This document shows positions 18,262 through 62,139 of a stretch of DNA of 64,000 nt, piece after piece; positions within the stretch are counted from its first letter, which is position 1; each line of letters opens with the position of its first letter. Source of the stretch: an uncultured Planctomycetales bacterium (GTDB lineage Bacteria > Omnitrophota > Gorgyraeia > Zapsychrales > Zapsychraceae); assembly GCA_964535935.1 (NCBI GenBank), contig CAZHWM010000007.1, forward strand, positions 37,708 through 101,707, given 5' to 3'. Below the pieces are notes generated by a model. The model was not told the origin of the DNA, did not search any database, and saw only the letters and a program-made list of their open reading frames with translations. A program made the position numbers and the translations under genes.

Positions 18262-18657
18262 TTAATTTAACCATACACCACCTGTTGTAATCTGAAATGT
18301 CTGAGAACCTGTAACCCCTTTATTAACTGGTGTAGCAGTTATAGTATAGCCGCCAGCATCCCATTGACATGTAATCTGAAATCCTGCCTTTGTAGTTCCA
18401 CAATATGATTCTGTTAAATAAGCTGGAGTTGCATCAGTAAGATCAGACTCTGCTGTAGGATATTGACCATTATTTGCTGTAGAATATGATTCTGCTGCTG
18501 TTGATATAGTACGTAAGGTACTCTTAGCAATAGAATCGTTGGATGCTACCTTTGCCCTTAACAACCCGGGAATTGCTATCATTGCTAAGACAGCAATAAT
18601 AGCTACAACAATCATAATCTCTACTAAGGTAAAACCTGATTTCTCTTTTAATCTCAT
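18262..18657 (-). CDS. pilA: Type IV pilin (probable major pilin)
   Basis: The internal ATG at 18655-18657, with RBS AAGGAAAGGAGAAAGAGG, gives MRLKEKSG then FTLVEIMIVVAIIAVLA (G-1, F+1, E+5). The Cys pair is YCGTTKAGFQITC. The ORF-track start at 18696 adds an unlikely 13-aa extension. Confidence 0.85.
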   Translation of the reverse strand: MRLKEKSGFTLVEIMIVVAIIAVLAMIAIPGLLRAKVASNDSIAKSTLRTISTAAESYSTANNGQYPTAESDLTDATPAYLTESYCGTTKAGFQITCQWDAGGYTITATPVNKGVTGSQTFQITTGGVWLN

Positions 18658-18915
18658 CCTCTTTCTCCTTTCCTTTACCAAAGAATAATTAATCATCCTT
18701 TAGTATCGGAACCGCTCAATAAAGATGTCTTTCTAGCATTTTTCATTATTATCTAATTAAAAATTATTATTACAGAACCCTATAATTATCTCTAAATTAT
18801 GCGGTTCCTATTTTTTATTTATTTTTAATTACTCTTCTATCTTGAACTATGATCCAGCAAATATTTTTTATTTCACCTCCTTCCCTGCTAAATTTAATCA
18901 TAGTCACAAGTAAAC

Positions 18916-18947: not shown

Positions 18948-18974
18948 ATAATACTTCAACTTCTTTTATTTTTA

Positions 18975-19049
18975 CGGCAACTGGCTACCCTGAAGATAAT
19001 TATTTCAGGGCCCTATAGCTTTGTGTCCCACCCTTACGAATGGTTTACC
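18975..19049 (-). promoter_or_regulatory. c-di-GMP-I (GEMM-I) riboswitch aptamer
   Basis: Minus strand reads GGUAAACCAUUCGUAAGGGUGGGACACAAAGCUAUAGGGCCCUGAAAUAAUUAUCUUCAGGGUAGCCAGUUGCCG. This aligns with the V. cholerae Vc2 aptamer GGCAAACCAUUCGAAAGAGUGGGACGCAAAGCC...GGUAGGUAGCGGGGUUACCG. Shared features are a GNRA-capped hairpin CCAUUC-GUAA-GGGUGG, the GGGAC(R)CAAAGC core, a second hairpin CCCUGAA/UUCAGGG, and a closing helix GGUAA/UUGCC. Confidence 0.8.
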
Positions 19050-19081
19050 TTTTTCGTTAATTCTGTTAATTGTCCATTGAA

Positions 19082-19271: not shown

Positions 19272-20309
19272 CTATTTTTGTATTTCTAATAGTTCTTTTT
19301 TTAAAGTCTTATTTTCATTATGAATAATAGATAAATTCTTTTTAAGACTATCCACATCCTCGCCTACACTTACAAGATTTTCTGTCTCCTCTATCTTTTT
19401 TTTTAGTTTTGTTATTAATTCATTTAATTCACGTTTTCGTGTTCTTAATTTTTCAATTTCCATCTCTATCTTTGACAAACTAACATTATTTGTCTCTCGT
19501 AAAGCCTTTATCTGTGACTGTAAAATTTTTTCATCGTCTAATGCTGTTTTATATTCCTTCTCCAATTCAGCAAGAGTGTTCTTTAATATCTTATTTTCTC
19601 CCTCTAGGTCATCAAGCTCTCTTAAAGGAACAGCATATTTCCTACAAATTAATTGTTTTTCTCTTTTTAGTGAAATTGTATTCTTTTTTCTTTTCTCTAT
19701 AGACTCAATAAGTCGTTGCTTTTCTTCTATAAATTTATTATTTTCATCTGAAGAAAGAATTTTTATTTCCTTTTTTATTGTTTCAACATCCTCTTGCAAT
19801 TTCTTCGCTTGTTTTTTTAACTTATCAATCTGTTGTTGATTAGCATTTATCTTAGCTATCAGAGATAATCTTTCTTTGTCTAACCCAGAAACATTTTGAT
19901 TTACTGTTGGTAACTTCTTTTCTAAAGAATTACTTTCTTCTAATTTATCAGACAGATAACTTGAAAGTTTATTCTTCTCTTTTATGAGAATTTCTTTCTC
20001 TTGCAAAAGTTTGTCATATCTTTTTTTTAAATTATCTATCTGCTCTTGAAATATTTTTATTTTCGTAGAGAGCCATTTATTACGCTGCTTTACCTTATCG
20101 GCACTCTCCTTAAGACTCCGTAGACTCTGTTCTAAAAGAGCCATAATAGAAACATGATGCCTTGAAATTTGAGAAAAGGAAGATGTGCTCCATGAAAAAA
20201 CAACGATACAAACAACCGACATAAAATAAATTCTTTTTATACCCTTTATAAATAAAAAAGCGAAAATATTTCTATTTCTTCTATATATTTTATTTCTTAT
20301 TATAGACAT
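19272..20309 (-). CDS. Membrane-anchored/secreted long coiled-coil protein, unknown function
   Basis: 345 aa. N-terminal hydrophobic segment (MSVVCIVVFSWSTSSFS), then about 300 aa of K/E/L/Q-rich heptad-like sequence. I recognise no catalytic motif. Located between pilC and the pilin leader. Confidence 0.6.
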   Translation of the reverse strand: MSIIRNKIYRRNRNIFAFLFIKGIKRIYFMSVVCIVVFSWSTSSFSQISRHHVSIMALLEQSLRSLKESADKVKQRNKWLSTKIKIFQEQIDNLKKRYDKLLQEKEILIKEKNKLSSYLSDKLEESNSLEKKLPTVNQNVSGLDKERLSLIAKINANQQQIDKLKKQAKKLQEDVETIKKEIKILSSDENNKFIEEKQRLIESIEKRKKNTISLKREKQLICRKYAVPLRELDDLEGENKILKNTLAELEKEYKTALDDEKILQSQIKALRETNNVSLSKIEMEIEKLRTRKRELNELITKLKKKIEETENLVSVGEDVDSLKKNLSIIHNENKTLKKELLEIQK

Positions 20310-20322
20310 CTTATCTTCCTTT

Positions 20323-21540
20323 TTATTTTATCAGACTAGTAATATTCATTATAGGCATAAATAAAGCTATTACAATAAAACCTATCATGATACCAAGCAC
20401 TCCTATTATAAGGGGTTCTATGATACTGGTAAGACCCTCTACTGCCGCATCCACCTGATCATCGTAAAACTCTGCTATCTTAAGAAGCATCTTATCCAAC
20501 TGCCCTGATTTTTCGCCTATAGCTATCATACGTGTCACCATGGAAGGAAACACTGGACTCTTTGCTAGTGGGGCTGCAAGACTTTCCCCCTCACGGACAC
20601 TATTTTTTACCTCTTCCACCACATTCTCTAAAAGTCTATTTCCTATAGTTCTTAAAAGGATGTCAAATGATTCTAATATTGGGACACCGCTCTGTAGTAA
20701 TGTAGCTAGAGTCCGGCAAAATCTACTTATAGCTACTTTACGTAAAAGCTCACCAAATAATGGAAGTTTAAGTATCGCGCTATCTATCGCTAACGCCCCT
20801 TTATCTGTCTTATACCATTTTCTTAATCCAAATACAACTATACTAATGCCTCCTACAAAAAACAAAAGTTGCCGTTTCAAGACATCGCTTATAGTAATAA
20901 GTAGTTTTGTCATAACTGGCAACTCTTGATCAAATGAACTATATATTTGAGCAAAAGTAGGAACAACCTTTACCAAGAGTCCTACCGTTATAAGAATAGC
21001 CATAGACACTACAACTGCCGGATACATCATAGCAGATTGTACCTTACGTTTTAACTTAAGGCTTTTCTCCATATAAGCAGCAACTCGATCTAAGACTATA
21101 TGTAATACTCCTCCTGTCTCCCCAACCTTCACCATATTTACAAAAAACACATCAAATACCCGAGGATATTTAGCAAAAGCAGCTGAAAGACTGCTGCCTG
21201 TTTGAATATCATCATGCACATTGTTAAGCACTTTTTTAAACACCGGATGGTTAATCTGCTCACGTAACGCATCTAAGGCCTGTACAATAGGAATACCTGC
21301 CTCTATCATAGTAGCCAATTGCCTACAAAATATAACTATCTCATCCGGTTTAATCTTCTTATTCTTAAATAGGCTACCCTCACCCCCCTTTGCTGAAGCG
21401 CCTTTTAGCTCTTCTACAGATATAATAATAAGATTCCTCTTTCTGAGTTCTTCTACAACAGCAGACTTACTTTCAGCTGCTATTTTACCAATTATAGTCT
21501 TAGCCTCGTTATTTTTAGCTGTATATTTAAAAGTGGCCAT
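20323..21540 (-). CDS. pilC: Type IV pilus platform protein PilC (GspF family)
   Basis: 405 aa. Duplicated GspF domain (FCRQLATMIEAGIPIVQAL and FCRTLATLLQSGVPILESF) with three TM segments. Confidence 0.95.
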   Translation of the reverse strand: MATFKYTAKNNEAKTIIGKIAAESKSAVVEELRKRNLIIISVEELKGASAKGGEGSLFKNKKIKPDEIVIFCRQLATMIEAGIPIVQALDALREQINHPVFKKVLNNVHDDIQTGSSLSAAFAKYPRVFDVFFVNMVKVGETGGVLHIVLDRVAAYMEKSLKLKRKVQSAMMYPAVVVSMAILITVGLLVKVVPTFAQIYSSFDQELPVMTKLLITISDVLKRQLLFFVGGISIVVFGLRKWYKTDKGALAIDSAILKLPLFGELLRKVAISRFCRTLATLLQSGVPILESFDILLRTIGNRLLENVVEEVKNSVREGESLAAPLAKSPVFPSMVTRMIAIGEKSGQLDKMLLKIAEFYDDQVDAAVEGLTSIIEPLIIGVLGIMIGFIVIALFMPIMNITSLIK

Positions 21541-21561
21541 CCAGTCTCTCCTAAATAAATA

Positions 21562-23274
21562 TTATTCATCTGCTGTAACACGTATAACCTCTTCTAGTGT
21601 TGTAAACCCTGCTATACATTTAGACATCGCATCATCCCATAAAGTAGCCATTTCTTTATTTTTACGTGCATATCCTTTTATTTCGTCTGAAGACTTTCCT
21701 CTTAATAAAAGATTTCTAATTTCGTCATCTACATCTAACACTTCTGTAACACACATCCTTCCTAGATATCCAGTATTACGACAAACATCACAGCCTTCCC
21801 CCTTATATAAAGTTATCCCCGATTTAAATTTATCTGTTAGATTCAATTTCTCTAATATTAGGTCTGTATCTTTTCTCTCTTGTTTGCAATGGGGGCATAT
21901 TCTTCGACACAATCTCTGTGCACTAATACATACAATACTTGATGCCACAAGAAATGGCTCTACCTGCATGTCTATCAACCTAGTCAAAGCACCGGCAGCA
22001 TCATTTGTATGCAAAGTAGAAAAAACTAATTGTCCTGTAAGTGATGCCTTAATTGCTATATCTGCAGTCTCATTATCCCTTATTTCTCCTACCATGACAA
22101 TATCTGGACTCTGCCGTAATATAGCACGCAAGCCCTCTGCAAAAGTTAAACCTATTTCTGGCCTGGTCTGTATCTGTGTAAGACCTTCTATCAAATATTC
22201 CACCGGATCTTCTACTGTTATAATATTTTTGTCCACTGTATTCAACTCGTTTATAATTGAATATAAAGTAGTGGACTTTCCACTCCCAGTAGGGCCAGTA
22301 ACTAAAATCATCCCAAACGGCTTCCTGATGGCCTCCTGAAGTATCGCCAAAGCATTCTCCGATATACCAAGTTCACTTAGGCCAACAGAAAGATTACCTT
22401 TATCAAGCACACGCATAACAACCTTCTGCCCAAATGTTGTAGGCAACAATGATACACGAAAATCAATCTCTTTATTTGATATACGCATCTTAAACCTACC
22501 ATCCTGTGGAATCTGGTTAACAGTAATATCCAATTTTGACATAATTTTTATTCTCACAATAACTGCATTCTGATTTTCTTTAGGTATTGTTAAAACATCA
22601 TGTAAGACGCCATCAACCCGAAACCTAACCCTCACGGCATCTGCCATGGGTTCTATATGTATATCAGAAGCTCGCTGCTTTACTGCCTCTTTTACTATAA
22701 GGTTGACCATACGTACAATAGGGGCTCGCTCACTTTCATCAACAACATTATCATCTGCAGTTTCGTCATGATCACTTACAATCTCAAAATCATCTATTTT
22801 TATATCCTTGCTTATATCTGTCACAGTTGTCTCAGTGGGGATACCGTAATAGTTATCAATAGTCTTAGATATCTCGGAATCTGTACTCATCACCACATCA
22901 ATATCTTTACCTGTGATATTATGCAAATCATCCGTAACAAATACATTTAATGGATCAGACATAGCAATAGTTATAGTATTATCTAATGCCGATAAGGGGA
23001 CAATATGGTACTGCCTTGCAACATTTTCTGGAATAATTTCTTGAAGAGAAGGATCTATCTTATATTTCTTAAGATTAATAAAAGGCACATTAAGCTCACG
23101 AACTAGCAAACTCAACAAATCTTCCTCATTTATGAGCCCTCGCTCTAACAATGCCTTATCAAAACTTATTGCCTTCTGTTCAGCAAGTCTCTGGACATCC
23201 TGTATATCCTTTTCTTTCAATTGCTTTGAGGCAATCAGGGCCTTTATAATTTTATCTTTTAATGTCTCCGCCAT
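21562..23274 (-). CDS. pilB: PilB/GspE-family pilus extension ATPase (copy 1)
   Basis: 570 aa. T2SSE_N region, Walker A GPTGSGKST, Asp box, Walker B IVMVGEIRD, His box, and a tetracysteine CPHC...CDVC. Confidence 0.95.
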   Translation of the reverse strand: MAETLKDKIIKALIASKQLKEKDIQDVQRLAEQKAISFDKALLERGLINEEDLLSLLVRELNVPFINLKKYKIDPSLQEIIPENVARQYHIVPLSALDNTITIAMSDPLNVFVTDDLHNITGKDIDVVMSTDSEISKTIDNYYGIPTETTVTDISKDIKIDDFEIVSDHDETADDNVVDESERAPIVRMVNLIVKEAVKQRASDIHIEPMADAVRVRFRVDGVLHDVLTIPKENQNAVIVRIKIMSKLDITVNQIPQDGRFKMRISNKEIDFRVSLLPTTFGQKVVMRVLDKGNLSVGLSELGISENALAILQEAIRKPFGMILVTGPTGSGKSTTLYSIINELNTVDKNIITVEDPVEYLIEGLTQIQTRPEIGLTFAEGLRAILRQSPDIVMVGEIRDNETADIAIKASLTGQLVFSTLHTNDAAGALTRLIDMQVEPFLVASSIVCISAQRLCRRICPHCKQERKDTDLILEKLNLTDKFKSGITLYKGEGCDVCRNTGYLGRMCVTEVLDVDDEIRNLLLRGKSSDEIKGYARKNKEMATLWDDAMSKCIAGFTTLEEVIRVTADE

Positions 23275-23333
23275 AATAAAAAATAAATTTTTAACTGATT
23301 AAATATCAGGTTAAAAAATATAAAAAGATACTT

Positions 23334-25091
23334 TCATCCCTCAACTCTATGAAGTGGATCATCTGGAGCGGTTACCCTTAAGACTTCCTCAAGAGTTGTC
23401 AAGCCTTTAGCAGCCTTAGCCAATCCATCCTCCCGCATAGTCTTCATACCCTCCGCACGAGCTACTTGTTTAATCTCAAATTCACCTGCCCTTTGTAATA
23501 TATATTCTTTTATTCGTGCAGATAAAACACAAATTTCAGTAATGCCTACCCGCCCTTTATATCCTGTATTAAAACATTCATCACATCCTCTGCCTTTATA
23601 AAATTGGATATCGCCTTCCTTTAAATATTGTGCAATGCCTATCCTTTTAGCGATATCTTCCGGCACATTATATAGTTCTTTACATTTAGGACATATCCGC
23701 CTTAAAAGCCTCTGGGCAACAATAGCAAGTACAGATGAACATATAAGAAAAGGTTCTATTCCCATATTCATCATACGTATAACCGAGCCTGCCGCTGTTG
23801 TCGTATGCAATGAACTTAAAACCAAATGTCCTGTAAGTGCTGCCTTTACAGCTATATCTAATGTCTCTGAATCCCGTATCTCACCTATCATAATTATATC
23901 AGGGTCCTGCCTTAAAATCGAACGTAAACATACAGGGAAGGTTAACCCCATAGAAGATTTTATATTTACCTGATTAAGCCCTGGCATCTCATATTCAACA
24001 GGATCCTCTACTGTAACGATATTTTTCTCCGGGGAATCTACAAACTTAAGAATAGAATATAGAGTAGTGGTCTTACCACTACCTGTTGGGCCACAGGTTA
24101 AAATCATACCATGTGGTTTTACTACACACTCCTTAAGTCGTTTCATAGATTCTGGTTCAAACCCTAATTTATCTATATTAAGCACTGAACTATCTTGATC
24201 AAGCACTCGTAATACAATCTTTTCGCCCAAAACGGTAGGGAGGACATTAACTCTAAAATCAACTTCATGATCCCCTGAAATAATCATCTTAAACCTTCCA
24301 TCCTGTGGGATCCTGTGTTCAGAGATATCCAAATTCGATATTACCTTAAACCTCGAAATAAGAGGGGAAAGAAGGACTTTCGCCATTCGGTCTATTTCCC
24401 GTATCACACCGTCCACACGGTATCTGATACGCATAGACTTCTCTAGCGGCTCTATAAATACATCACTTGCTCCTGCCATAACTGCCTGTTTGATAATTGT
24501 ATCTGCCAATTTAATTATAGGTGCTTCCTCTGTTAACTCCTCCACTATTTCTTGACTTTGAGAAGAATCTATATCCTTAACCAATTCAAGATCCTCTGTA
24601 TCCCTAATATCCTGCATGATCTCATCGAATGTTTCCGTTTTTTCATCAGAAGCTTGCTCTTGCTTATAATAACTATCCAAAACAGCCTCTATTTCCTTAG
24701 GGGAGCTAATGACAGGAATTATTGAATATCCTGTAAGTGCTTTTAAATTGTCTATTGCAAAAATATTAAGAGGGTCAGCCATCGCCACAGTCAAATGCTC
24801 CCCTATAAGAGAAATGGGCACAAGCTGATAATTACGACACACCTTAGAGGGGATAATTTTTATTATAGAAGAGTCCAATTTAACACAGGAAACCTTGATA
24901 ATAGGGATACCAAGTCCCTCACTCAATACCTGTCTGAGAGTATCCTCATCTACTAATTTCATCTTCAAGAGAATCTTCCCAAGTTCTTCTCCTGTCTTAG
25001 CCTGCTCATCCAATGCACGACTCAGGTCCTCAGAAGATATAATACCATCACGAATAAATATAGCTTTTAAGCGATCGTTTAAAGATGCCAT
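23334..25091 (-). CDS. PilB/GspE-family ATPase (copy 2) with MshEN-like N-terminus
   Basis: 585 aa. N-terminal RLKAIFIRDGIISSEDLSRALDEQ-AKTGE-ELGKILLKMKLVDEDTLRQVL, Walker A GPTGSGKTT, Walker B IIMIGEIRD, and CPKC...CDEC. Confidence 0.93.
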   Translation of the reverse strand: MASLNDRLKAIFIRDGIISSEDLSRALDEQAKTGEELGKILLKMKLVDEDTLRQVLSEGLGIPIIKVSCVKLDSSIIKIIPSKVCRNYQLVPISLIGEHLTVAMADPLNIFAIDNLKALTGYSIIPVISSPKEIEAVLDSYYKQEQASDEKTETFDEIMQDIRDTEDLELVKDIDSSQSQEIVEELTEEAPIIKLADTIIKQAVMAGASDVFIEPLEKSMRIRYRVDGVIREIDRMAKVLLSPLISRFKVISNLDISEHRIPQDGRFKMIISGDHEVDFRVNVLPTVLGEKIVLRVLDQDSSVLNIDKLGFEPESMKRLKECVVKPHGMILTCGPTGSGKTTTLYSILKFVDSPEKNIVTVEDPVEYEMPGLNQVNIKSSMGLTFPVCLRSILRQDPDIIMIGEIRDSETLDIAVKAALTGHLVLSSLHTTTAAGSVIRMMNMGIEPFLICSSVLAIVAQRLLRRICPKCKELYNVPEDIAKRIGIAQYLKEGDIQFYKGRGCDECFNTGYKGRVGITEICVLSARIKEYILQRAGEFEIKQVARAEGMKTMREDGLAKAAKGLTTLEEVLRVTAPDDPLHRVEG

Positions 25092-25165
25092 TATGATTTT
25101 TTATGGTAGGCAATTAAGTAGTTGTTCCTAATTTTAAATAATAACTAAAATTATAACAAAACTTA

Positions 25166-25609
25166 TCATATATAATATTTATCTATAGCCTGTCTTATCT
25201 CTGTAGCAGTGGCAACAAACACCTGAACAATACAGCCAGTAATCACCTCCACATCCTCTACCGCCTGCATATTTAAAGGATTCGACATAGCCAAAGTAAG
25301 ACTTTTACCAATCTTATCAATTGGAACAAGACAATACTGCTGGCATAAGTTCTTAGGCACAGAACCTATTACTTCCGGATCTATTTCATAATTTGCTAAC
25401 GGAAGATACGGAAAACCATACTGACATGTCAGTGCCTGAGCAATATCCTTCTCAGTACAAAACTTCAACTCAACCAAAACCTCTCCTATAAGCCCCCCCT
25501 GCCTCTTCCAATATTCTAGGGCATTATTTAACTGCTCATGGGTAATAACACCCCTCTCTATCAGAAGCTCCCCTATCTTCTTTTTGGTTGTTCTTGTATA
25601 ACTCTTCAT
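25166..25609 (-). CDS. Stand-alone PilB/GspE N-terminal domain protein (MshEN-like + T2SSE_N, no ATPase)
   Basis: 147 aa. KIGELLIERGVITHEQLNNALEYW-KRQGG-LIGEVLVELKFCTEKDIAQALTCQ is followed by a T2SSE_N-type segment (YGFPYLPL...LVPIDKIGKSLTLAMSNPLNMQAVEDVEVITGCIV). Confidence 0.75.
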   Translation of the reverse strand: MKSYTRTTKKKIGELLIERGVITHEQLNNALEYWKRQGGLIGEVLVELKFCTEKDIAQALTCQYGFPYLPLANYEIDPEVIGSVPKNLCQQYCLVPIDKIGKSLTLAMSNPLNMQAVEDVEVITGCIVQVFVATATEIRQAIDKYYI

Positions 25610-25705
25610 TTCCCTAGTTTAAATCAAATTTATAATATATGCGTATTCTACAATAGTTAAACAAATATAACAATTATTTTATTATTCTAATTATTCTCTC
25701 AACGC

Positions 25706-26767
25706 TTATTGAAGATCCGTCTCAGATAACAAAACCTCCCTCCAAAACTTTATATGCTCATTACGATCAAAAACAGCATCAATCCTAAGACATGTATCAA
25801 CATTATCTATCATGCCAAAACTATGACATGAAAAATAATTTGACCGTACACATAATAAATTTGCAGAAACGACAGTTTGCAATTGTGATAATTCATTTAT
25901 ATCCAACCCTTCTTCCCTACTTAATGTACTTGATATAGTAGATGGACTCTTAAAAACATTATCATCTTTCGTTGCAGGCAAGCCATCTTCGCCATTACGA
26001 AAATGAATCAACTTCTCAACAAGACTATCACTCATCCCTAAACTCTCTAACACCAACATATCGGCAGTATTGACGTTCACCGCACCCGTACCAAATATAG
26101 TCAATCTATCTCTTACTTTGCCAAATATATCACGGTCCATGCCTTTTACCAAAAGAAGTTCCTCTAACGACTCAAAATTGGAATTCTTGCAAGGATACCC
26201 CGGCCTTAAATTAGAATAATAACTAGTCTCTGCTCCATCATCTTCCGGTTCATCATCTTTATCCCTCCAATCAATAATTGATGATGCTATCTCCCTGGCC
26301 TTCTGAGAGCTAATACCTGCTACTGTTTCAAAAAACCGTTTAAGCACTTCAAAAGGGGCTGTATTAATATTTATCTTACGCTCCTCGTCTACAAGTCCAT
26401 ACAACTGTATCATATCATCCCCATCTCCATTAGGCCAAAAACTCATTATACTAAAACTACCATTCCCTAGTTGAATACATTTAAATTCTTTCTCATTATT
26501 ACTCCATAAATCATTTAAAGCATCATACTCTGCATCATCTTTACCCAATACATACATAGCCTTTTCCACTCCTGCCGTAGCAAGATAATACATCTCTGTA
26601 TGCCTTGCTATTTTACTAGCAACATTTAGCTGCGGCCATAAATACGCGTGAATCGCAACAGCTAGCATACTTAAAAAAAACAACATCCATAAAACTATAA
26701 ATAGTATACTACCTCTTTGAGTTTTCCTATTTTTATAATTCAAATTTATATCATAACCATACTGCAT
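25706..26767 (-). CDS. GspK-like minor pseudopilin
   Basis: 353 aa. N-terminus QRGSILFIVLWMLFFLSMLAVA (pseudopilin-like helix without Glu+5, as in GspK) and two helix-hairpin-helix-like NxNTA motifs (ININTAPFEVLKRF, VNVNTADMLVLESLG). Confidence 0.65.
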   Translation of the reverse strand: MQYGYDINLNYKNRKTQRGSILFIVLWMLFFLSMLAVAIHAYLWPQLNVASKIARHTEMYYLATAGVEKAMYVLGKDDAEYDALNDLWSNNEKEFKCIQLGNGSFSIMSFWPNGDGDDMIQLYGLVDEERKININTAPFEVLKRFFETVAGISSQKAREIASSIIDWRDKDDEPEDDGAETSYYSNLRPGYPCKNSNFESLEELLLVKGMDRDIFGKVRDRLTIFGTGAVNVNTADMLVLESLGMSDSLVEKLIHFRNGEDGLPATKDDNVFKSPSTISSTLSREEGLDINELSQLQTVVSANLLCVRSNYFSCHSFGMIDNVDTCLRIDAVFDRNEHIKFWREVLLSETDLQ

Positions 26768-26956
26768 AAAAACCTTTCAAAATACAATACTTCTACTACC
26801 TCTATCAATGCTATTATAATTTATTATAATATCTACATAAACAGTGCACAAACACCCATCTTATAGTGATAAAAAATAATTTCATTACATAAAATAGACT
26901 AAATAATATTATATACTCTGCATTATTCCCTTTAATCTTTCAATAGCTAAATAAAA

Positions 26957-27589
26957 TCATATGGCTACTGGGATTAATATTACTTTCGACCAAACATAAT
27001 CTCTCCCGGCTGAATTAAATTCGATTCTCACCATAACAGCTTTGGGTATCCCATCTTTGCTAACCCATTTATCTTTCCACTCATATTCTCCCTCAGAATT
27101 AATATAAAGATATTTGAATAACATCTGTTTTACATGAAAAAGCCTCCTTCTGTTTGTAATAGTATTCCCTTCTTTAGACACGGCTAAAGGGTAGGTTTGT
27201 TCAGCCTTCACTAAATAACCAGTGTGCTTATCAAAATAATAATATATCCTACCAACACTAACCTTACTCTTCTCACCGGTGCCCATCCTAACCAATCCTG
27301 GGAAAGACAGGCTATTATTACTTCCAGAAAAACCTATACTGGAAAAATAAAAAATACTTCTAATATCTCGTTCTATGTGCTCAAAAAACAATACCGCATT
27401 TACCTGCTGATTTCCATATTCTTTTACTCTATTATATATATCTAATCCTCTAGAAAAAACAGAGACTATAGAAACAGATATAATTCCAAAGATAGAAACT
27501 GCAATGAGCAATTCTATTAATGTAAATCCTTTTAAATAAAGGCGACTAATATTTTTGTTCTTTATACAAAAATGTATTCTTATCAACAT
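26957..27589 (-). CDS. Prepilin-type N-terminal cleavage/methylation domain protein (minor pseudopilin, GspJ/PilW-like)
   Basis: 210 aa. Leader ...LYLKG then FTLIELLIAVSIFGIISV (G-1, F+1, E+5). Confidence 0.7.
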   Translation of the reverse strand: MLIRIHFCIKNKNISRLYLKGFTLIELLIAVSIFGIISVSIVSVFSRGLDIYNRVKEYGNQQVNAVLFFEHIERDIRSIFYFSSIGFSGSNNSLSFPGLVRMGTGEKSKVSVGRIYYYFDKHTGYLVKAEQTYPLAVSKEGNTITNRRRLFHVKQMLFKYLYINSEGEYEWKDKWVSKDGIPKAVMVRIEFNSAGRDYVWSKVILIPVAI

Positions 27590-27659: not shown

Positions 27660-29540
27660 TTAAAACTCAAAGGAAAACCCACCTTCAAAATATCTTCTAG
27701 GTAAAGGATGGCAAATATTGGACCAATATTTGCTATTCGTAATATTATGAACATCTAAAAATACGCTCAAACCCTTACATACATTGCCAAACTTTTTGCG
27801 CATATGCACATCAAAGATAAATTTGCGGTCCTCTGGCTGAGAAGATGCTGGAGAACTCCACCGGTTATATGTTCCAATAATACCTACAAAAAGACCATTG
27901 TCGCTTTTATACGAAGCAGAAATAACAAACCCCTGTCTGGCTATTGCCTCGTCACGCACAATTTCATTTGTTTCTGCATTTCTTACATCATTAAATACAG
28001 CAGATGTATGTAAGTTAATCTTATCCGTTAATTGACAGTCAATAAAAAGCTCTGCTCCCTGTCGTCTGAATTTCTTAAAATTATCATATGCAGATATGGT
28101 AGTAGACCAGCCGATCGCATCTTTTATATCTGTCCGATACAAATTCAAATTTATTTTTAAAAGATTATTTACTTCTGATGCAATGCCTATTTCATAAACA
28201 ACCGCTCGTTCTGGTTTAAGATCTGAGTTGGGATATACCCCTAAAGAAGGATCATCCATATATATCCATAATAGTGGTGGAGCATTAAACGCACGGGATA
28301 CTTTAAACCTAAAGATCGTAGTCCTATTTCTATTAAAATAATACACACATCCCAGACTTGGACTAAGCTGAGAACCAAACTGTCTGTTATAATCAAACCT
28401 TATACCTGCTATGATATCCATATTTTTACGTTTAAGCGTATAATTCATATAAGGCGCTTGCATAACCGCACATTTACTATCGGAGAGATATCTATTAGAC
28501 TTAAGTACATACCAGTCAAAGTCTGCTCCAGCGACAATAAAAGAGCTATCAGACAAATGCATGCTTGAGGCAATACTCATGCCTTGATAAAAATTATTGC
28601 TTACTGTTGACGATTCTAGTATCCCAGATGAAACATTATATCTATCACTTATGATATCCTGGTCATTGTATTTATATGCAATATTCCATGAGAATCTATC
28701 CTTGTCAACATCTACAGACAATTTGCCATATCTTGATATATATGGAGTATAATACCATTTACCATTGGGATTTGGGCCATCATAAACATCTGCCCCACAC
28801 CAACCGAATGAACCGATTACCCTACTGCTATCGCCTAAGTCATAAGAAAGTTTGAGGAATCCGTCTCTTTCCTGTGCATCTGATATTGATTTGATTCCCT
28901 TTGTTTCCATATAACTGCCTGATAAAAAATATCCTAGTTTAGCAAACTTGCCTGAAAGTTCCAAACTTTTCTTCATCGTAGCAAACTCTGCAAAACTAGA
29001 AGTAACCTTTCCCTTAGGAGACAAGGATGTGCCTGTATCTTTTGTAATAACATTAATCACCCCACCTAAACCAGATCCCCATACGCTTGAAGCCCCTGCT
29101 TTTATTATCTCAATACGGGCTATATTTCCTATAGGCAAACGTGCAGGGTTCGCCTGCCCTGAAAGTTGAGTATTAAAGGGAATACCGTCCACCATAACCA
29201 GGACATGCCGTGATTCAGAACCATGAATAGATAAAGACCTTGCTTGGCAGAACTGGCTTGATACCCCAACATCCACTCCCGGGACATAATACAGAAATTC
29301 TCCTAAGTCCCTTGCTGGCATCGTTTCTATTTCTTCAAAAGAATACACAGATATATTATCTGCTATACCATCATCTGCTCCAGACTTGATATGCCTTGCA
29401 CTTATAACAACCGTCCCTAAATCCGTAGATAAAGGAATATATAAATCCGCTGCTAATAGAGATATGGGAAAAGCTATATATATCTGTATTATGATGAGAA
29501 AAAATGTTATCGTAAATCTAAAACAATAGAACCTACACAT
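27660..29540 (-). CDS. TonB-dependent outer-membrane receptor (BtuB-sized)
   Basis: 626 aa. Signal peptide, TonB-box-like LGTVVISA, plug domain (PGVDVGVSS...SIHGSESRHVLVMVDGIPFN), a long beta-barrel, and a terminal ...GGFSFEF with a C-terminal Phe. Confidence 0.85.
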   Translation of the reverse strand: MCRFYCFRFTITFFLIIIQIYIAFPISLLAADLYIPLSTDLGTVVISARHIKSGADDGIADNISVYSFEEIETMPARDLGEFLYYVPGVDVGVSSQFCQARSLSIHGSESRHVLVMVDGIPFNTQLSGQANPARLPIGNIARIEIIKAGASSVWGSGLGGVINVITKDTGTSLSPKGKVTSSFAEFATMKKSLELSGKFAKLGYFLSGSYMETKGIKSISDAQERDGFLKLSYDLGDSSRVIGSFGWCGADVYDGPNPNGKWYYTPYISRYGKLSVDVDKDRFSWNIAYKYNDQDIISDRYNVSSGILESSTVSNNFYQGMSIASSMHLSDSSFIVAGADFDWYVLKSNRYLSDSKCAVMQAPYMNYTLKRKNMDIIAGIRFDYNRQFGSQLSPSLGCVYYFNRNRTTIFRFKVSRAFNAPPLLWIYMDDPSLGVYPNSDLKPERAVVYEIGIASEVNNLLKINLNLYRTDIKDAIGWSTTISAYDNFKKFRRQGAELFIDCQLTDKINLHTSAVFNDVRNAETNEIVRDEAIARQGFVISASYKSDNGLFVGIIGTYNRWSSPASSQPEDRKFIFDVHMRKKFGNVCKGLSVFLDVHNITNSKYWSNICHPLPRRYFEGGFSFEF

Positions 29541-29588
29541 CTACATACATAACTTTTATTAAACAAAATAATTATTTCAATAATTAAG

Positions 29589-30491
29589 CTACTCATGCAT
29601 TAAGACCCCAATAGATTTTCTAAAAAAGGCTTCCTCTTCTATAAACCCAAAATCATGGCATAGTTTTAATAATTTTCTATACCTGTCTACAGGATCAAGG
29701 CCTAATGCCCAACAAAGTTTTCTAAGACAAACAGGACAGAGCCATAAAGGACGACTATCTAACTCTATTCTATAATTACTACCATTCATCACACATTCAT
29801 AAAAAATACAATGATGAAATCCAAGTATATGACATATCTCATGCACGCCTGTTTTTATTGCTCGCTTGAGACACAGTTTATATGCTGCCTGATCCTTTGC
29901 TGGATCACCATAACGATATATAGACCACACTCCTACTCGATCTACTACGGAGGCCTGTCCAAAAACATAATTCCATCCCTTCCCAGGCCATAAGTCAGAT
30001 GATGTAAACGCAAGGAAACAAAAAGCATCCGATGGCATATTAGGTATAAGTATTTTTTCAATGACATAACTACTTAAAATCTGGTGATCATGTGTCAAGG
30101 GATGGATCCTCTTTGCATACGAAGGAATTGAAGAAAGACTGATAGAAGGAGCAAACTTCACTGGCAAACCAAAAAACGCCTCAATATACTTGACAGTATC
30201 TTTTATTATCTGTTTACCTGCAGGAGAAAACTTGCCAAGAAGAGTAATATAAATTATCCTTCTATCTTTGCTAGGTAGGGGGGGATTACTCTTAATATAT
30301 TCACTATAACTCTGACCATCTTCTCTATGATTCGCCAACCAGTCATTTTCCCCAGGAGGAGTTTTGATCTTATGAAGGGGTAAAAGTCGTTCAAAAGCTG
30401 CCTCATCTGAAAAATTTATTGTATCAGCATAAACAAAACTTACAAAGAACAGGAAACAAATACCAACTAAAAAAATAAAATTCAACCTCAT
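29589..30491 (-). CDS. Archaemetzincin-like zinc metallopeptidase (M54) with signal peptide
   Basis: 300 aa. N-terminal MRLNFIFLVGICFLFFVSFVYA signal peptide. HEICHILGFHHCIFYECVMNGS...LWLCPVCLRKL matches the archaemetzincin signature HExxHxxGxxxCxxxxCxM...CxxC. Confidence 0.8.
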   Translation of the reverse strand: MRLNFIFLVGICFLFFVSFVYADTINFSDEAAFERLLPLHKIKTPPGENDWLANHREDGQSYSEYIKSNPPLPSKDRRIIYITLLGKFSPAGKQIIKDTVKYIEAFFGLPVKFAPSISLSSIPSYAKRIHPLTHDHQILSSYVIEKILIPNMPSDAFCFLAFTSSDLWPGKGWNYVFGQASVVDRVGVWSIYRYGDPAKDQAAYKLCLKRAIKTGVHEICHILGFHHCIFYECVMNGSNYRIELDSRPLWLCPVCLRKLCWALGLDPVDRYRKLLKLCHDFGFIEEEAFFRKSIGVLMHE

Positions 30492-30602
30492 GAAAAAAAG
30501 TTTCCATTATAATCAAATAATTATCAATCTTATAATTCCTAAAACATAAATTTTTAATATTAAAAATTTATTAATAGTTCTAAATTTCCCTCTCGCTCCA
30601 GA

Positions 30603-30992
30603 TTACTCAACAGGCAACAATTTTACTCCTGTTTCTGGACAATACTCCATATTAGCACTATATCTCTTCCCTGTAACAGGAGAATATTTAACCTTTACTT
30701 TGCCTGGGATAACTGCATCACCTATCTCCTTTATAACTGTCTGGGCCTCTTTATCTTTTACGATACTTTTTGTAAGATTAACTACTTCGTCTTCGTTTAA
30801 TTTTTTACCTGTAATTACCTCTGATACTGTCTTTATGGTATTAAACGCGTCCTTTCTTCTCCGAATAGTTGGGGTTCCTGTTAATTTTTTCTTATGAGGC
30901 GATAAGGATACACATCCTGCAATAATAAATATTACAACAATAACACCTATCAGATGAACACAAAAATTAATTCTTCGGAGTATTAACCACAC
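30603..30992 (-). CDS. Hypothetical lipoprotein
   Basis: 129 aa. GTG start preceded by GGGTGG. Signal peptide ending in the lipobox IIAGC. I recognise no domain. Confidence 0.45.
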   Translation of the reverse strand: MWLILRRINFCVHLIGVIVVIFIIAGCVSLSPHKKKLTGTPTIRRRKDAFNTIKTVSEVITGKKLNEDEVVNLTKSIVKDKEAQTVIKEIGDAVIPGKVKVKYSPVTGKRYSANMEYCPETGVKLLPVE

Positions 30993-31005
30993 ACAAAACC
31001 ACCCT

Positions 31006-31434
31006 TTATTTCGTAGCGGTCTGAATCATATGATCAATGACCTTATCACTAACATTATTATTTTTCAGATATGAAATTATCTCTGAGGTAAGTTTATATA
31101 CAGAATGCGTTCTATCTATCTCACTTATAATAAGATCATCTGGCATTCCTTTTTTTACCATATCAACAATCTTCTCTATAGTAACATAATTAGGATTATT
31201 AGCCGCCTGATATTTATCCATCTGATACCCTATAAGCCCACCGCTTAACGCTCCTGCAGCCCCTCCTATCAGAGCGCCTTCCCATGCATGCCCATCCTGA
31301 TGGCCAACAATACCTCCAATAGCCGCACCCGTTAACGCTCCAATACCCGCACCTTTTTTAGTTCCCTCTCCCATAGTCTCACAACCAGCAAAGGCTACCA
31401 CCATTACCATAACAAAAATAAGATTTTTTTTCAT
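31006..31434 (-). CDS. Glycine-zipper lipoprotein
   Basis: 142 aa. MKKNLIFVMVMVVAFAGC lipobox, then glycine-zipper repeats GAGIGALTGAAIGGIVG...GALIGGAAGALSGGLIG, plus a small C-terminal domain. Confidence 0.6.
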   Translation of the reverse strand: MKKNLIFVMVMVVAFAGCETMGEGTKKGAGIGALTGAAIGGIVGHQDGHAWEGALIGGAAGALSGGLIGYQMDKYQAANNPNYVTIEKIVDMVKKGMPDDLIISEIDRTHSVYKLTSEIISYLKNNNVSDKVIDHMIQTATK

Positions 31435-31463: not shown

Positions 31464-31862
31464 TGGTGGAGGTGCGGGGAATCGAACCCCGGTCCTTGCA
31501 ACGTTATGCATAAGCTTCTACATGCTTAGCCTGTCAATTAATCTCCCCCTTGCTGCCTTGACAGGCAAAGTCAACAAAAGGCAGCCCTCTAAAAATCTCA
31601 CATCCGCCCCAAGGGCAAGGACAGATGCCAGCCTGCTAGTGACCTTTTATAGACCCGCAGGCAAGACCTATAAAAGGGCCTTGTTTATCTATTAAACAAG
31701 GGCTTCGTCACCTGCAAAGACAGGTTCCACTATAGAACTTGCCTTTGCTAACAAACGTTCATTCTCGCCGTTTGTTTTTGCCCGGATGATTAACGAGGCC
31801 AACCAGGCTTCCTCGGCATGCCACTTATGCATCAACTGTCCAAGTCGAGACCAATCACCCCC
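31464..31862 (-). ncRNA. ssrA: tmRNA (SsrA)
   Basis: Minus strand starts GGGGGUGAUUGGUCUCGACUUGGACAG and ends ...GGGGUUCGAUUCCCCGCACCUCCACCA. The acceptor GGGGGUG/CACCUCC carries the G3:U70 alanine identity pair and the CCA is encoded. An internal reading frame ends ...GCA GGU GAC GAA GCC CUU GUU UAA UAG, with the stops in the loop of a hairpin (CCUUGUUUA/UAAACAAGG). Confidence 0.92.
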
Positions 31863-61168: not shown

Positions 61169-61179
61169 AAAACAAAACT

Positions 61180-62139
61180 ATGAATAGATATTTGCATATT
61201 ATCCTTTCTCTTCTACTTTTAACAACCTCATCTATAAATTGTTTCAAAATGGTCCCCTCCCAAGGTATAACAATACCTCAGGCAGTTCAAAAATTCAGGA
61301 AAATATGTAAGGAAGAACTGCATATCAACCCTGTCATAAAACAAATACAGGACACATTATGGATATATGTACCCATAAAAAAAGACCTATTGGAATTTAA
61401 GGCATCAAAAAACGGGCCACAAAATCCCAATGAGGCAAAAACAAAAATATCTATCCGTTTTCTAGATACAGTATTTAAAGACAACGGATTTTATATTACA
61501 TATGATATTGCAAGGATAAAAACATATGCAAGAGATTATGGTTACAGTTCTGTTTATTCTGATTATTATCAAAATCTACACAGAGGAGTCTTCTCTGCTA
61601 TGCAAAGAAGCCTTTTGGGTGTAGGAGAAATTTCAGGAGATATAAAATTTAAAGATATAAAAAAACAAAACACACACAAAAGACTTATAAACACATATAT
61701 AAAAACAGATATTCCCCCTCTATTTATTGTCGTTGTCATAGCTGATATAAAAACCGGAATAGAACTTGAAAGCATGTTTTATTTCAATGACCTAAAACGG
61801 GCATACAGTATAACTGCAAATATATCCGGAGCAGAATATATGAAAAGATATATCTCTGATTTAAGGGGAAATATAAATATTATAGGTGATGAAAAAGGCA
61901 AGCATCTAAACTATCGACAGATCACTATGGGAGAATTCCTTGCCAAACAGATAGCAAACAGGATAAGATTCAAATATGAAAGGAGTCAATTCCCCCCATC
62001 TGCTAATACAAAAAAAGAAATATTACAAATCGTAAAAACTACAGTCAACATCTATAAATTTACTAAATTCCAAACCGTCACCCTGAAGGACCTCAAGACT
62101 AATCAAATATATTCTATATCTAAACAAGATCTACTATAA
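61180..62139 (+). CDS. Hypothetical exported protein, probably co-transcribed with the FtsH-like gene
   Basis: 319 aa. N-terminal signal sequence MNRYLHIILSLLLLTTSSINC (possible lipoprotein Cys). I recognise no domain. It starts 11 nt after the FtsH-like stop. Confidence 0.5.
   Translation: MNRYLHIILSLLLLTTSSINCFKMVPSQGITIPQAVQKFRKICKEELHINPVIKQIQDTLWIYVPIKKDLLEFKASKNGPQNPNEAKTKISIRFLDTVFKDNGFYITYDIARIKTYARDYGYSSVYSDYYQNLHRGVFSAMQRSLLGVGEISGDIKFKDIKKQNTHKRLINTYIKTDIPPLFIVVVIADIKTGIELESMFYFNDLKRAYSITANISGAEYMKRYISDLRGNINIIGDEKGKHLNYRQITMGEFLAKQIANRIRFKYERSQFPPSANTKKEILQIVKTTVNIYKFTKFQTVTLKDLKTNQIYSISKQDLL

What the first reader, a model, noticed from the sequence alone, without database searches (positions are those of the whole stretch)
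27660..31434. Secreted archaemetzincin in an operon with a TonB-dependent receptor and two lipoproteins
Four tightly spaced co-oriented genes make up this unit. They are a glycine-zipper lipoprotein, a 129-aa lipoprotein, a 300-aa protein and a BtuB-sized TonB-dependent receptor.

The 300-aa protein carries the archaemetzincin signature HEICHILGFHHCIFYECVM...CPVC behind a clear signal peptide (cleavage around VYA/DT). Archaemetzincins (M54) are described as cytosolic enzymes of archaea and vertebrates, and their physiological substrates are poorly defined. An exported version genetically coupled to an outer-membrane active transporter suggests an extracytoplasmic peptide-processing and uptake module.

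There is no riboswitch or Fur-box-like element I can recognise upstream, and no room for one between the protease and the receptor (48-nt gap).
Basis: partly seen in the sequence, partly recalled or inferred. Interest (0 to 1): 0.55.

Follow-up and report, generated by a model that had tools for sequence, protein, structure and literature searches.

The report
Exported archaemetzincin beside an orphan TonB receptor
The four genes are real and the 300-aa protein is an exported archaemetzincin-type zinc protease, but it belongs to a large, already annotated bacterial group, and its position next to the outer-membrane receptor is confined to one genus rather than being a conserved protease-plus-uptake module.

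Summary
On the minus strand lie a Gly-zipper lipoprotein (31006-31434), a 129-aa lipoprotein-like gene (30603-30992), a 300-aa M54 protein (29589-30491) and a 626-aa TonB-dependent receptor, or TBDR (27660-29540). The gaps are 13, 111 and 48 nt.

The M54 protein has the full archaemetzincin motif. It passes the Pfam cutoff, matches AmzA crystal structures by sequence and by predicted fold, and starts with a signal peptide.

- Exported archaemetzincins are not unusual. Thousands of about 300-aa homologues exist in Omnitrophota and Planctomycetota, most with hydrophobic N-termini, and many are already named archaemetzincin.
- The M54-TBDR pairing is not conserved. None of 81 other M54 loci has an adjacent TBDR, and none of 82 TBDR-family loci has an M54 gene.
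- Only congeneric genomes, syntenic across the whole region, keep the block.
- Co-orientation means little, because nearly every gene in the window is on the minus strand.

The TBDR's relatives sit in a different conserved cassette: a σ54-type regulator, the TBDR, a family-5 binding protein, a CCFP peptide, a radical-SAM maturase and an ABC exporter. None of these partners is in the window.

The finding is a new member of a known kind and of low to moderate interest.

The parts
31464..31862 (-). tmRNA (ssrA) gene, ending 29 nt upstream of the Gly-zipper gene.
   Evidence: Rfam RF00023 at 185.3 bits, E=6.6e-74. ARAGORN reports the tag peptide GENERLLAKASSIVEPVFAGDEALV. The junction with the next gene is conserved in congeners.
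31006..31434 (-). Glycine-zipper lipoprotein, 142 aa, with lipobox AFAG|C.
   Evidence: Pfam Gly-zipper_Omp E=6.5e-12 and Gly-zipper_YMGG E=1.1e-11. It is 85% identical in congeners and absent from all other M54 and TBDR loci.
30603..30992 (-). 129-aa lipoprotein-like protein (GTG start, IIAG|C) of unknown family.
   Evidence: No Pfam hit. Only 12 homologues are found in 5.8 billion proteins. The three more distant homologues examined are not next to M54, TBDR or Gly-zipper genes.
30504..30539 (-). Conserved half of the 111-nt gap upstream of the M54 gene. It contains a perfect TATAAT (30506-30511) and is a candidate promoter for an M54-TBDR transcript. This is an inference.
   Evidence: In the alignment with congener L082, the part of the gap nearest the M54 start is nearly invariant while the far part is divergent. 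The consensus promoter scan did not call it.
29589..30491 (-). Exported archaemetzincin-family (M54) zinc metallopeptidase, 300 aa. Layout: signal peptide (residues 1-22), conserved N-terminal extension (about 30-78), AmzA-like catalytic domain (about 79-259), C-terminal helices (260-300).
   Evidence: PF07998 at 43.5 bits against cutoff 24.4. PDB AmzA 3zvs E=8.7e-12 and 2x7m E=1.6e-10. AF2 model pLDDT 94.4. Foldseek TM 0.85 and 0.80 to AmzA.
29727..29843 (-). Codons for the archaemetzincin signature, residues 217-255: H217-E218-xx-H221-xx-G224-xx-H227-C228-x4-C233-x-M235-x16-C252-xx-C255.
   Evidence: Read directly from the translation. H217, E218, H221, H227, C228 and C252 are invariant in 91 homologues. 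C233, M235 and C255 are at least 90% conserved.
30426..30491 (-). Codons for the signal peptide, MRLNFIFLVGICFLFFVSFVYA|DT.
   Evidence: Read from the translation. The congener has MKWNFFLVGVCLVFFVTCAYA|ET, which keeps the small residues at -3 and -1. The model shows a helix at 2-20 followed by a low-confidence linker. Of 116 homologues, 97 have a comparable hydrophobic N-terminal segment.
27660..29540 (-). TonB-dependent outer-membrane receptor, 626 aa, with signal peptide, TonB-box-like GTVVISA, plug, 22-strand-type barrel and terminal Phe. It is not a BtuB equivalog. It belongs to an Omnitrophota TBDR clade that is otherwise linked to a peptide (RiPP) cassette.
   Evidence: Plug at 70.8 bits and barrel at 89.2 bits. 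BtuB models score 144 and 126 bits against cutoffs of 600 and 836.

Best explanation
The 300-aa gene encodes a Sec-exported, probably periplasmic, zinc metallopeptidase of the archaemetzincin (M54) family. Its catalytic His3/Glu site, Met-turn and Cys4 structural site are all intact. It belongs to a large bacterial clade of about 300-aa proteins found in Omnitrophota, Planctomycetota and other PVC-group lineages. This clade adds three things to the archaeal AmzA core: a signal peptide or membrane anchor, a conserved N-terminal extension of about 50 residues, and a C-terminal helical extension.

The TonB-dependent receptor next to it belongs to a different system. Its relatives are embedded in a cassette for a small radical-SAM-modified CCFP peptide, with a family-5 binding protein and an ABC exporter. 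In this genus the receptor has been separated from that cassette, or has lost it, and has landed beside the protease gene.

The four envelope-protein genes between the tmRNA gene and a type II secretion/type IV pilus-like cluster are therefore a genus-specific juxtaposition. The M54 and TBDR genes are probably co-transcribed here, given the 48-nt gap and the conserved TATAAT-containing block upstream of M54. There is no evidence that they depend on each other.

Shown here: family membership, fold, conservation of the export signal, and lack of pairing conservation. Inferred: periplasmic location, proteolytic activity and co-transcription.
For: Family and fold:
- Pfam M54 is the only hit and is above its cutoff.
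- The best PDB sequence hits are AmzA proteins.
- The AF2 model has pLDDT 94.4 and pTM 0.88. Foldseek gives TM 0.85 and 0.80 to AmzA structures 3zvs and 2x7m.
- The catalytic and Cys4 residues are invariant or nearly so in 91 homologues.

Export:
- A hydrophobic N-terminus followed by VYA|D is conserved as AYA|E in the congener.
- 97 of 116 homologues have such a segment, and 16 of those have a lipobox-like motif.
- Two fusion proteins place the M54-like domain across a transmembrane segment from a Ser/Thr kinase or FAIM1-like domain.

Clade size:
- 3444 word-indexed hits, many already named archaemetzincin.
- 4191 clusters at E<=1e-3 and 698 at E<=1e-30 in the 50% identity representative library.

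No conserved pairing:
- A TBDR profile hits only L013 and L016 among 81 M54 loci, about 3.2 kb away and not adjacent.
- An M54 profile hits none of 82 TBDR-family loci, 787 kb in total.
- The block is present only in congeners that are syntenic at 83-85% DNA identity.
- Homologues of the 129-aa gene in three more distant contigs lie in unrelated contexts.

Real partners of the TBDR:
- SBP_bac_5 in 24 loci, radical SAM in 31 and response regulators in 53 of 82 loci.
- A CC[FYW]P-motif peptide ORF (CCFP in 12) lies in 14 of 15 gaps between the binding-protein and radical-SAM genes.
- The window's TBDR nests inside that clade.
- None of these partners is found in the window.
Against: - M54 and TBDR are only 48 nt apart (34 nt in the congener), with no recognisable terminator or promoter between them. 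Co-transcription, and hence some functional link in this genus, is plausible.
- The TBDR family is associated with a peptide in its relatives, so a peptide-related role for a neighbouring protease is not absurd.
- No dedicated signal-peptide predictor was available. A 20-residue hydrophobic stretch could instead be an uncleaved anchor.
- Only 64 kb of the genome was seen, so the missing cassette could lie elsewhere in it.
- The TBDR tree is neighbour-joining without bootstrap support.
- The NCBIfam archaemetzincin subfamily model scores below its cutoff, 87.9 against 145 bits.
Confidence: 0.75

Rival explanations
1. One reading: the exported M54 protease and the TBDR form a dedicated extracytoplasmic module. 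The protease trims a peptide or protein substrate, and the receptor imports the product.
For: - The genes are on the same strand, 48 nt apart (34 nt in the congener), with a conserved promoter-like block upstream of M54 and none seen between them.
- Both products are envelope proteins.
- The two proteins are conserved to the same degree between congeners, 86% each.
- Relatives of the TBDR are linked to a small peptide and to an oligopeptide/nickel-type binding protein.
Against: - The pairing is absent from 81 other M54 loci and 82 other TBDR-family loci.
- It is seen only within one genus, where the entire region is syntenic.
- Almost all genes in the window share the strand.
- The flanking lipoprotein genes have independent distributions.
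Confidence: 0.12
2. A piracy variant. This genus lost the biosynthesis, export and binding-protein genes of the CCFP-peptide system and kept only the receptor, so that it can take up the peptide made by neighbours. It then recruited the periplasmic M54 protease to process or destroy the imported molecule.
For: - The window's TBDR nests within a clade whose members carry the full cassette.
- The cassette genes and the CCFP peptide are absent from the 64-kb window.
- The protease gene lies immediately upstream of the receptor gene.
Against: - Only 64 kb of the genome was examined, so the cassette may be elsewhere.
- No other lineage shows the same recruitment.
- Nothing is known about the substrate of any archaemetzincin. 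AmzA was inactive on the substrates tested (PMC3427221).
Confidence: 0.06
3. The M54 protein is not an active secreted protease. Instead it is a membrane-anchored or non-catalytic archaemetzincin-like module with a sensor or regulatory role, as in Myxococcus CarG.
For: - The hydrophobic segment is long, about 18-20 residues, and could be an uncleaved anchor.
- A clade member, P0350, is a kinase-TM-M54-like fusion with HEXXH degenerated to QETGN.
- NCBIfam has a 'non-proteolytic archaemetzincin-like' model that gives a weak hit of 29.7 bits.
- Archaeal AmzA enzymes showed no activity in vitro (PMC3427221).
Against: - All catalytic residues (H217, E218, H221, H227, M235) are intact here and conserved across 91 homologues.
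- The small residues at -3 and -1 (VYA|D, AYA|E) are conserved.
- The CarG-type model scores far below its cutoff of 250 bits.
Confidence: 0.07

Closest known systems
Archaeal archaemetzincins AmzA (Archaeoglobus fulgidus 3ZVS/4A3W/4AXQ; Methanopyrus kandleri 2X7M), MEROPS M54
   Same: - Same signature, HEXXHXXGXXHCX4CXM...CXXC.
- Same catalytic-domain fold, with Foldseek TM 0.85 and 0.80.
- Sequence E-values of 8.7e-12 and 1.6e-10.
   Different: - AmzA proteins are 160-195 aa with no signal peptide.
- The window protein adds a signal peptide, a conserved N-terminal extension of about 50 residues and C-terminal helices of about 40 residues.
- It scores below the NCBIfam archaemetzincin subfamily cutoff.
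- Most bacterial clade members have Ser rather than Gly in HEXXHXXG. The window protein keeps Gly.
Vertebrate AMZ1/AMZ2 and Myxococcus CarG (archaemetzincin homologues)
   Same: They share the M54 core and the Cys4 cluster (PMC3427221).
   Different: - AMZ1 and AMZ2 are described as aminopeptidases, and CarG as a non-proteolytic part of a transcriptional regulator (PMC3427221).
BtuB (TonB-dependent cobalamin receptor)
   Same: - Similar size, 626 aa.
- Same plug-plus-barrel architecture.
- BtuB models are the best-scoring NCBIfam models, and some sources label relatives 'vitamin B12 transporter'.
   Different: - Scores are far below the equivalog cutoffs, 144 against 600 bits and 126 against 836 bits.
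- There is no cobalamin riboswitch.
- Relatives are linked to a peptide/radical-SAM cassette, not to btuCDF-type genes.
Geopeptide-type radical-SAM peptide systems (NCBIfam TIGR04280), and methanobactin-style peptide metallophore loci that combine a TonB receptor with a family-5 binding protein (the latter from my own knowledge)
   Same: - Relatives of the window's TBDR sit beside SBP_bac_5, a roughly 31-aa CCFP peptide, a radical SAM/SPASM maturase and an ABC exporter.
- The maturase's nearest NCBIfam model is the geopeptide maturase, at 288 bits.
   Different: - The maturase scores below the cutoff of 400 bits.
- The two CCFP peptides tested match no NCBIfam model.
- None of these partner genes is in the window.
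- The methanobactin analogy is architectural only and was not tested.

Membership tests
Archaemetzincin (MEROPS M54 / Pfam PF07998) | Profile match above the curated threshold | tested here: met
   PF07998 scores 43.5 bits against a gathering cutoff of 24.4, E=4.8e-11, and is the only Pfam family hit.
Archaemetzincin (MEROPS M54 / Pfam PF07998) | Extended metzincin zinc motif HEXXHXXGXXH with catalytic Glu | tested here: met
   H217-E218-I-C-H221-I-L-G224-F-H-H227 is read from the translation. H217, E218, H221 and H227 are invariant in 91 homologues.
Archaemetzincin (MEROPS M54 / Pfam PF07998) | Four-cysteine cluster and Met-turn, CX4CXM...CXXC (motif from PMC3427221) | tested here: met
   C228-x4-C233-V-M235-x16-C252-P-V-C255. 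The M-to-C spacing equals that of AfAmzA in the pairwise alignment. The residues are conserved.
Archaemetzincin (MEROPS M54 / Pfam PF07998) | AmzA-like three-dimensional fold | tested here: met
   AF2 model with pLDDT 94.4. Foldseek to 3zvs gives E=1.4e-9 and target-normalised TM 0.85, and to 2x7m gives TM 0.80. MMPs and other metzincins reach only E>=0.046.
Archaemetzincin (MEROPS M54 / Pfam PF07998) | Zinc-dependent peptidase activity | not testable with these tools
   This needs enzyme assays. Even archaeal AmzA was inactive on the substrates tested (PMC3427221).
NCBIfam NF033823 'archmetzin' subfamily | Score above the curated cutoff of 145 bits | tested here: not met
   87.9 bits, E=7e-25, covering model positions 12-170. 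The protein is a homologue but lies outside the curated subfamily threshold.
Sec-exported protein (cleavable signal peptide) | Positively charged N-terminus, hydrophobic core, small residues at -3 and -1 | tested here: inconclusive
   M-R, then an 18-residue hydrophobic core, then V-Y-A|D. The congener keeps A-Y-A|E. 97 of 116 homologues pass a hydropathy heuristic. No dedicated predictor or experiment was available, so an uncleaved anchor is not excluded.
TonB-dependent receptor | Plug domain plus beta-barrel domain above the Pfam thresholds | tested here: met
   PF07715 at 70.8 bits (cutoff 23.9) and PF00593 at 89.2 bits (cutoff 27). The protein also has a C-terminal Phe and a TonB-box-like GTVVISA after the signal peptide (the consensus is from my own knowledge).
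BtuB cobalamin receptor (equivalog) | Equivalog-level score and a cobalamin riboswitch or btu gene context | tested here: not met
   TIGR01779 scores 144.5 against 599.7 bits, and NF007926 scores 126.4 against 836 bits. Rfam finds no cobalamin riboswitch in the window.
Conserved operon / functional module M54 + TBDR | Recurrence of the gene pair in independent lineages | tested here: not met
   No adjacent TBDR in 81 M54 loci. No M54 in 82 TBDR-family loci. The pair is present only in congeners that are syntenic across the whole region.
Conserved operon / functional module M54 + TBDR | Co-transcription in this organism | not testable with these tools
   The 48-nt gap and the conserved block upstream of M54 are compatible with it. 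No transcript data were available.

The most novel reading that the evidence does not exclude
In this Omnitrophota genus, an orphaned receptor of the CCFP-peptide (geopeptide-like RiPP) uptake family has been re-paired with an exported archaemetzincin. Together they would form a piracy module. The receptor imports a modified peptide, possibly a metallophore, made by other cells. The periplasmic protease opens it, replacing the binding-protein route. That would give an archaemetzincin its first physiological substrate.
Probability: 0.06. Interest if true: 0.65.

Novelty: new member of a known kind. Interest (0 to 1): 0.25.

Why it matters
No archaemetzincin has a known physiological substrate, so a conserved genetic partner would have been a valuable lead. 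This analysis shows that the receptor is not such a partner.

What remains useful is the recognition that a large clade of the family is bacterial and extracytoplasmic (4191 clusters at 50% identity with E<=1e-3, 698 with E<=1e-30). That bears on whether the Cys4 site stays a zinc site or forms disulfides, and it points to better places to look for function. One such place is the recurrent TPR, DsbA-like and secretin-like neighbours in other Omnitrophota.

The by-product may be more promising than the original finding: an Omnitrophota cassette that couples a radical-SAM-modified CCFP peptide with a TonB receptor, a family-5 binding protein and an exporter.

Tried and rejected
- Genomic island at the tmRNA gene. 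No direct repeat of the tmRNA 3' end, and no att-like repeat, occurs in 15-33 kb. Composition is unremarkable. The synteny break between congeners lies on the other side of the tmRNA.
- Fur box. The best match in the three intergenic gaps scanned (before M54, M54-TBDR, after the TBDR) is 12 of 19, a score reached 274 times in the window.
- Cobalamin or any other riboswitch in the block. None was found.
- σ70 promoter and terminator scan. It finds fewer promoter-like sites than in shuffled sequence and nothing decisive in the gaps.
- A CCFP precursor peptide, family-5 binding protein, radical-SAM maturase or σ54 regulator in the window. None was found.
- Domain fusions of clade members as clues to substrate. 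No consistent partner emerged. A kinase and a FAIM1-like domain inform only on topology.
- Homologues of the 129-aa gene as an intermediate-distance synteny probe. Their contexts are unrelated.
- Literature searches. Nothing was found for 'Peptidase_M54' with 'signal peptide', or for 'geopeptide'.

Full report
**What is there**

The region 27660-31434 holds four ORFs, all on the minus strand.
- A 142-aa glycine-zipper lipoprotein at 31006-31434. Pfam Gly-zipper_Omp gives E=6.5e-12, and the lipobox is AFAGC.
- A 129-aa lipoprotein-like protein at 30603-30992, with a GTG start, an IIAGC lipobox and no Pfam family.
- A 300-aa protein at 29589-30491.
- A 626-aa TonB-dependent receptor (TBDR) at 27660-29540, with Plug at 70.8 bits and barrel at 89.2 bits.

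Independent gene calls on public contigs carrying the same sequence give the same four lengths. The gaps are 13, 111 and 48 nt, with 70 nt to the next gene, a T2SS-J-like pseudopilin.

A tmRNA gene at 31464-31862 (Rfam 185 bits; ARAGORN tag peptide) ends 29 nt before the first gene. Also, nearly every ORF of at least 100 aa in the 64-kb window is on the minus strand, with strongly negative GC skew throughout, so co-orientation carries no information about operon structure. The organism is a Candidatus Omnitrophota bacterium, judged from the names attached to homologues.

**The protease**

The 300-aa protein hits only Pfam Peptidase_M54, at 43.5 bits against a cutoff of 24.4. It scores 87.9 bits on the NCBIfam archaemetzincin subfamily model, below the 145-bit cutoff.

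It carries the complete signature H217-E218-xx-H221-xx-G224-xx-H227-C228-x4-C233-x-M235-x16-C252-xx-C255. This matches the published HEXXHXXGXXHCX4CXM...CXXC motif (PMC3427221). These residues are invariant or at least 90% conserved in 91 homologues.

The best PDB sequence matches are archaemetzincins: 3zvs at E=8.7e-12 and 2x7m at E=1.6e-10. An AlphaFold2 model built on the 91-sequence alignment is confident, with pLDDT 94.4 and pTM 0.88. Its only strong structural neighbours are AmzA structures, with target-normalised TM 0.85 and 0.80. MMPs and other metzincins trail at E>=0.046. No other metzincin family is a better home.

**Export**

The N-terminus, MRLNFIFLVGICFLFFVSFVYA|DT, has one basic residue, an 18-residue hydrophobic core and small residues at -3 and -1. 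The congener keeps the pattern as ...CAYA|ET. In the model this is a helix at 2-20 followed by a low-confidence linker.

A simple hydropathy test finds a comparable segment in 97 of 116 close homologues. Most of the rest have truncated N-termini or score just below the threshold. Sixteen of the 97 also have a lipobox-like motif.

Two clade members are fusions in which a transmembrane segment separates the M54-like domain from a cytoplasmic-type Ser/Thr kinase or a FAIM1-like domain. This agrees with an extracytoplasmic location. I could not run a dedicated signal-peptide predictor, so cleavage as opposed to anchoring remains an inference.

**How unusual is an exported archaemetzincin?**

It is not very unusual.
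- The word-indexed search returned 3444 homologues. The top 120 are all about 300 aa and 46-61% identical, apart from the 100% self-match. The sources name them as Omnitrophota or Planctomycetota, and many are already called archaemetzincin.
- The exhaustive search of 50%-identity representatives found 4191 clusters at E<=1e-3 and 698 at E<=1e-30. Most of the best 150 match across roughly residues 30-297, which is the full extended architecture.
- The literature already lists bacterial archaemetzincins (PMC4681839).

What has not been described, as far as my searches show, is that this bacterial clade is exported and carries a conserved N-terminal extension of about 50 residues (F.KL.PLH..K..PGP.DWLA.H.EPGQTF) and C-terminal helices.

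**Is the protease-receptor pairing conserved?**

It is not.

Forward test. I examined 80 M54 loci from GTDB representative genomes, with up to 8 kb on each side, plus one metagenome locus. I searched them with tblastn and with an HMM built from 120 TBDR homologues. Only L013 and L016, two related genomes with the same layout, have any TBDR. It lies about 3.2 kb downstream, beyond intervening ORFs on both strands, and is only distantly related.

Reverse test. I examined 80 metagenome loci of the TBDR family plus two more, 787 kb in total, with an M54 HMM. None has an M54 gene.

The four-gene block recurs only in L082, L083 and L084. These genomes have 83-85% DNA identity to the window across the whole stretch from the tmRNA into the secretion/pilus cluster, so this is plain synteny. 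The Gly-zipper gene is absent from all the other fetched M54 and TBDR-family loci. The 129-aa gene belongs to a family of only 12 proteins, and the three more distant members whose contigs I examined sit in unrelated contexts.

**What the neighbours normally are**

In a subclade of Omnitrophota, the M54 gene follows a membrane protein of about 430 aa with TPR repeats (14 loci). It often also follows a DsbA-like thioredoxin and a short secretin-like protein (8 loci each), or a response regulator (8 loci).

The TBDR's relatives have a much stronger signature. Upstream lie σ54-type response regulators (53 of 82 loci). Downstream lie an SBP_bac_5 binding protein (24 loci, Pfam E=2e-90), a radical SAM/SPASM maturase (31 loci) and an MsbA/HlyB-like ABC exporter (10 loci). 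The maturase's nearest NCBIfam model is the geopeptide maturase, at 288 bits against a cutoff of 400. Nearly all close relatives with enough flanking DNA have the full set.

Between the binding-protein and maturase genes, 14 of 15 loci encode a peptide of about 28-36 aa with a conserved CC[FYW]P motif (CCFP in 12), of the form MEIIRKGSDKVF..GPL.CCFP.G....

In a neighbour-joining tree without bootstrap support, the window's receptor and its congener nest inside this cassette-linked clade. None of the cassette genes, and no CC[FYW]P peptide ORF, is in the window. The receptor is therefore best seen as a displaced or orphaned member of a peptide (RiPP)-associated uptake family. It is not a BtuB: it scores 144 against 600 bits, and there is no cobalamin riboswitch.

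**Transcription**

The half of the 111-nt gap nearest the M54 start is almost invariant between the window and its congener. It contains a perfect TATAAT at 30506-30511, while the far half has diverged. The M54-TBDR gap (48 nt, or 34 nt in the congener) is AT-rich and conserved, with no terminator or promoter call. I infer that M54 and the TBDR are probably co-transcribed from their own promoter, separately from the two lipoprotein genes.

The lipoprotein genes lie so close to the tmRNA gene, 23-29 nt with a conserved T-run and GGGAG, that they must be read through from it or from a promoter inside it. These are inferences without transcript data.

**Rejected leads**
- No att-like repeat of the tmRNA end was found.
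- No Fur box above chance was found.
- No compositional anomaly was seen.
- Domain fusions gave no informative partner.

**Verdict**

The 'secreted archaemetzincin' part is supported, but the protein is a member of a large bacterial clade that databases already annotate. The 'operon with a TonB-dependent receptor as a processing-and-uptake module' part is not supported beyond a single genus.

A residual possibility, which I put at roughly 6-12%, is that the pair has acquired a joint function in this genus. One version is piracy of the CCFP peptide.

Novelty: new member of a known kind. Interest: 0.25.

Noticed in passing
L085, L088-L100, L105, L111 and others (TBDR-family loci); compare window 27660-29540: Conserved Omnitrophota cassette: σ54-type response regulator(s), TBDR, SBP_bac_5 binding protein, a roughly 31-aa peptide with a conserved CC[FYW]P motif (CCFP in 12 of 14; MEIIRKGSDKVF..GPL.CCFP.G...), a radical SAM/SPASM maturase (nearest model is the geopeptide maturase TIGR04280, below cutoff) and an ABC exporter. 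It looks like a system that makes, exports and re-imports a modified peptide, possibly a metallophore. No paper mentioning 'geopeptide' was found.
   Followed up: partly
window 31464-31862 (-): A tmRNA gene ends 29 nt upstream of the Gly-zipper lipoprotein gene, with only a T-run and a GGGAG ribosome-binding site between them. That leaves no room for a separate promoter. In congener L082 the genes on the far side of the tmRNA differ (chemotaxis genes rather than the E1 dehydrogenase), so a synteny breakpoint sits at the tmRNA.
   Followed up: partly
window 18972-19058 (-): A c-di-GMP-I-GGC riboswitch aptamer (Rfam RF03167, 64.1 bits against a gathering score of 59). It lies just downstream of the secretion/pilus-like gene cluster and upstream of a 144-aa ORF at 18262-18696.
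   Followed up: no
window 1-59400 versus 59510-62139: Extreme strand bias. Essentially all long ORFs over about 59 kb are on the minus strand, with GC skew from -0.18 to -0.40. The only sizeable plus-strand genes are at 59510-62139, where the skew turns positive.
   Followed up: no
window 19272-27589 (-): Immediately downstream of the TBDR lies a type II secretion/type IV pilus-like cluster: a J-like pseudopilin, T2SS-K, an MshEN-domain protein, two tandem paralogous T2SS-E ATPases (DNA repeats 22007-22155 and 23803-23951, 71% identical) and T2SS-F.
   Followed up: partly
L001, L002, L004, L006, L011-L013, L015-L019, L022, L024: In a subclade of Omnitrophota, the M54 gene is preceded by a membrane protein of about 430 aa with TPR repeats. 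In eight loci each there is also a DsbA-like thioredoxin and a short secretin-like protein. A DsbA-like neighbour is suggestive, given the Cys4 cluster of an exported archaemetzincin.
   Followed up: partly
proteins P0350 and P0289 (clade members from the representative library): P0350 is a Ser/Thr kinase, a TM segment and an M54-like domain with HEXXH degenerated to QETGN, so it is probably a pseudo-protease sensor. P0289 is a FAIM1-like domain, a TM segment and an intact M54 domain.
   Followed up: partly
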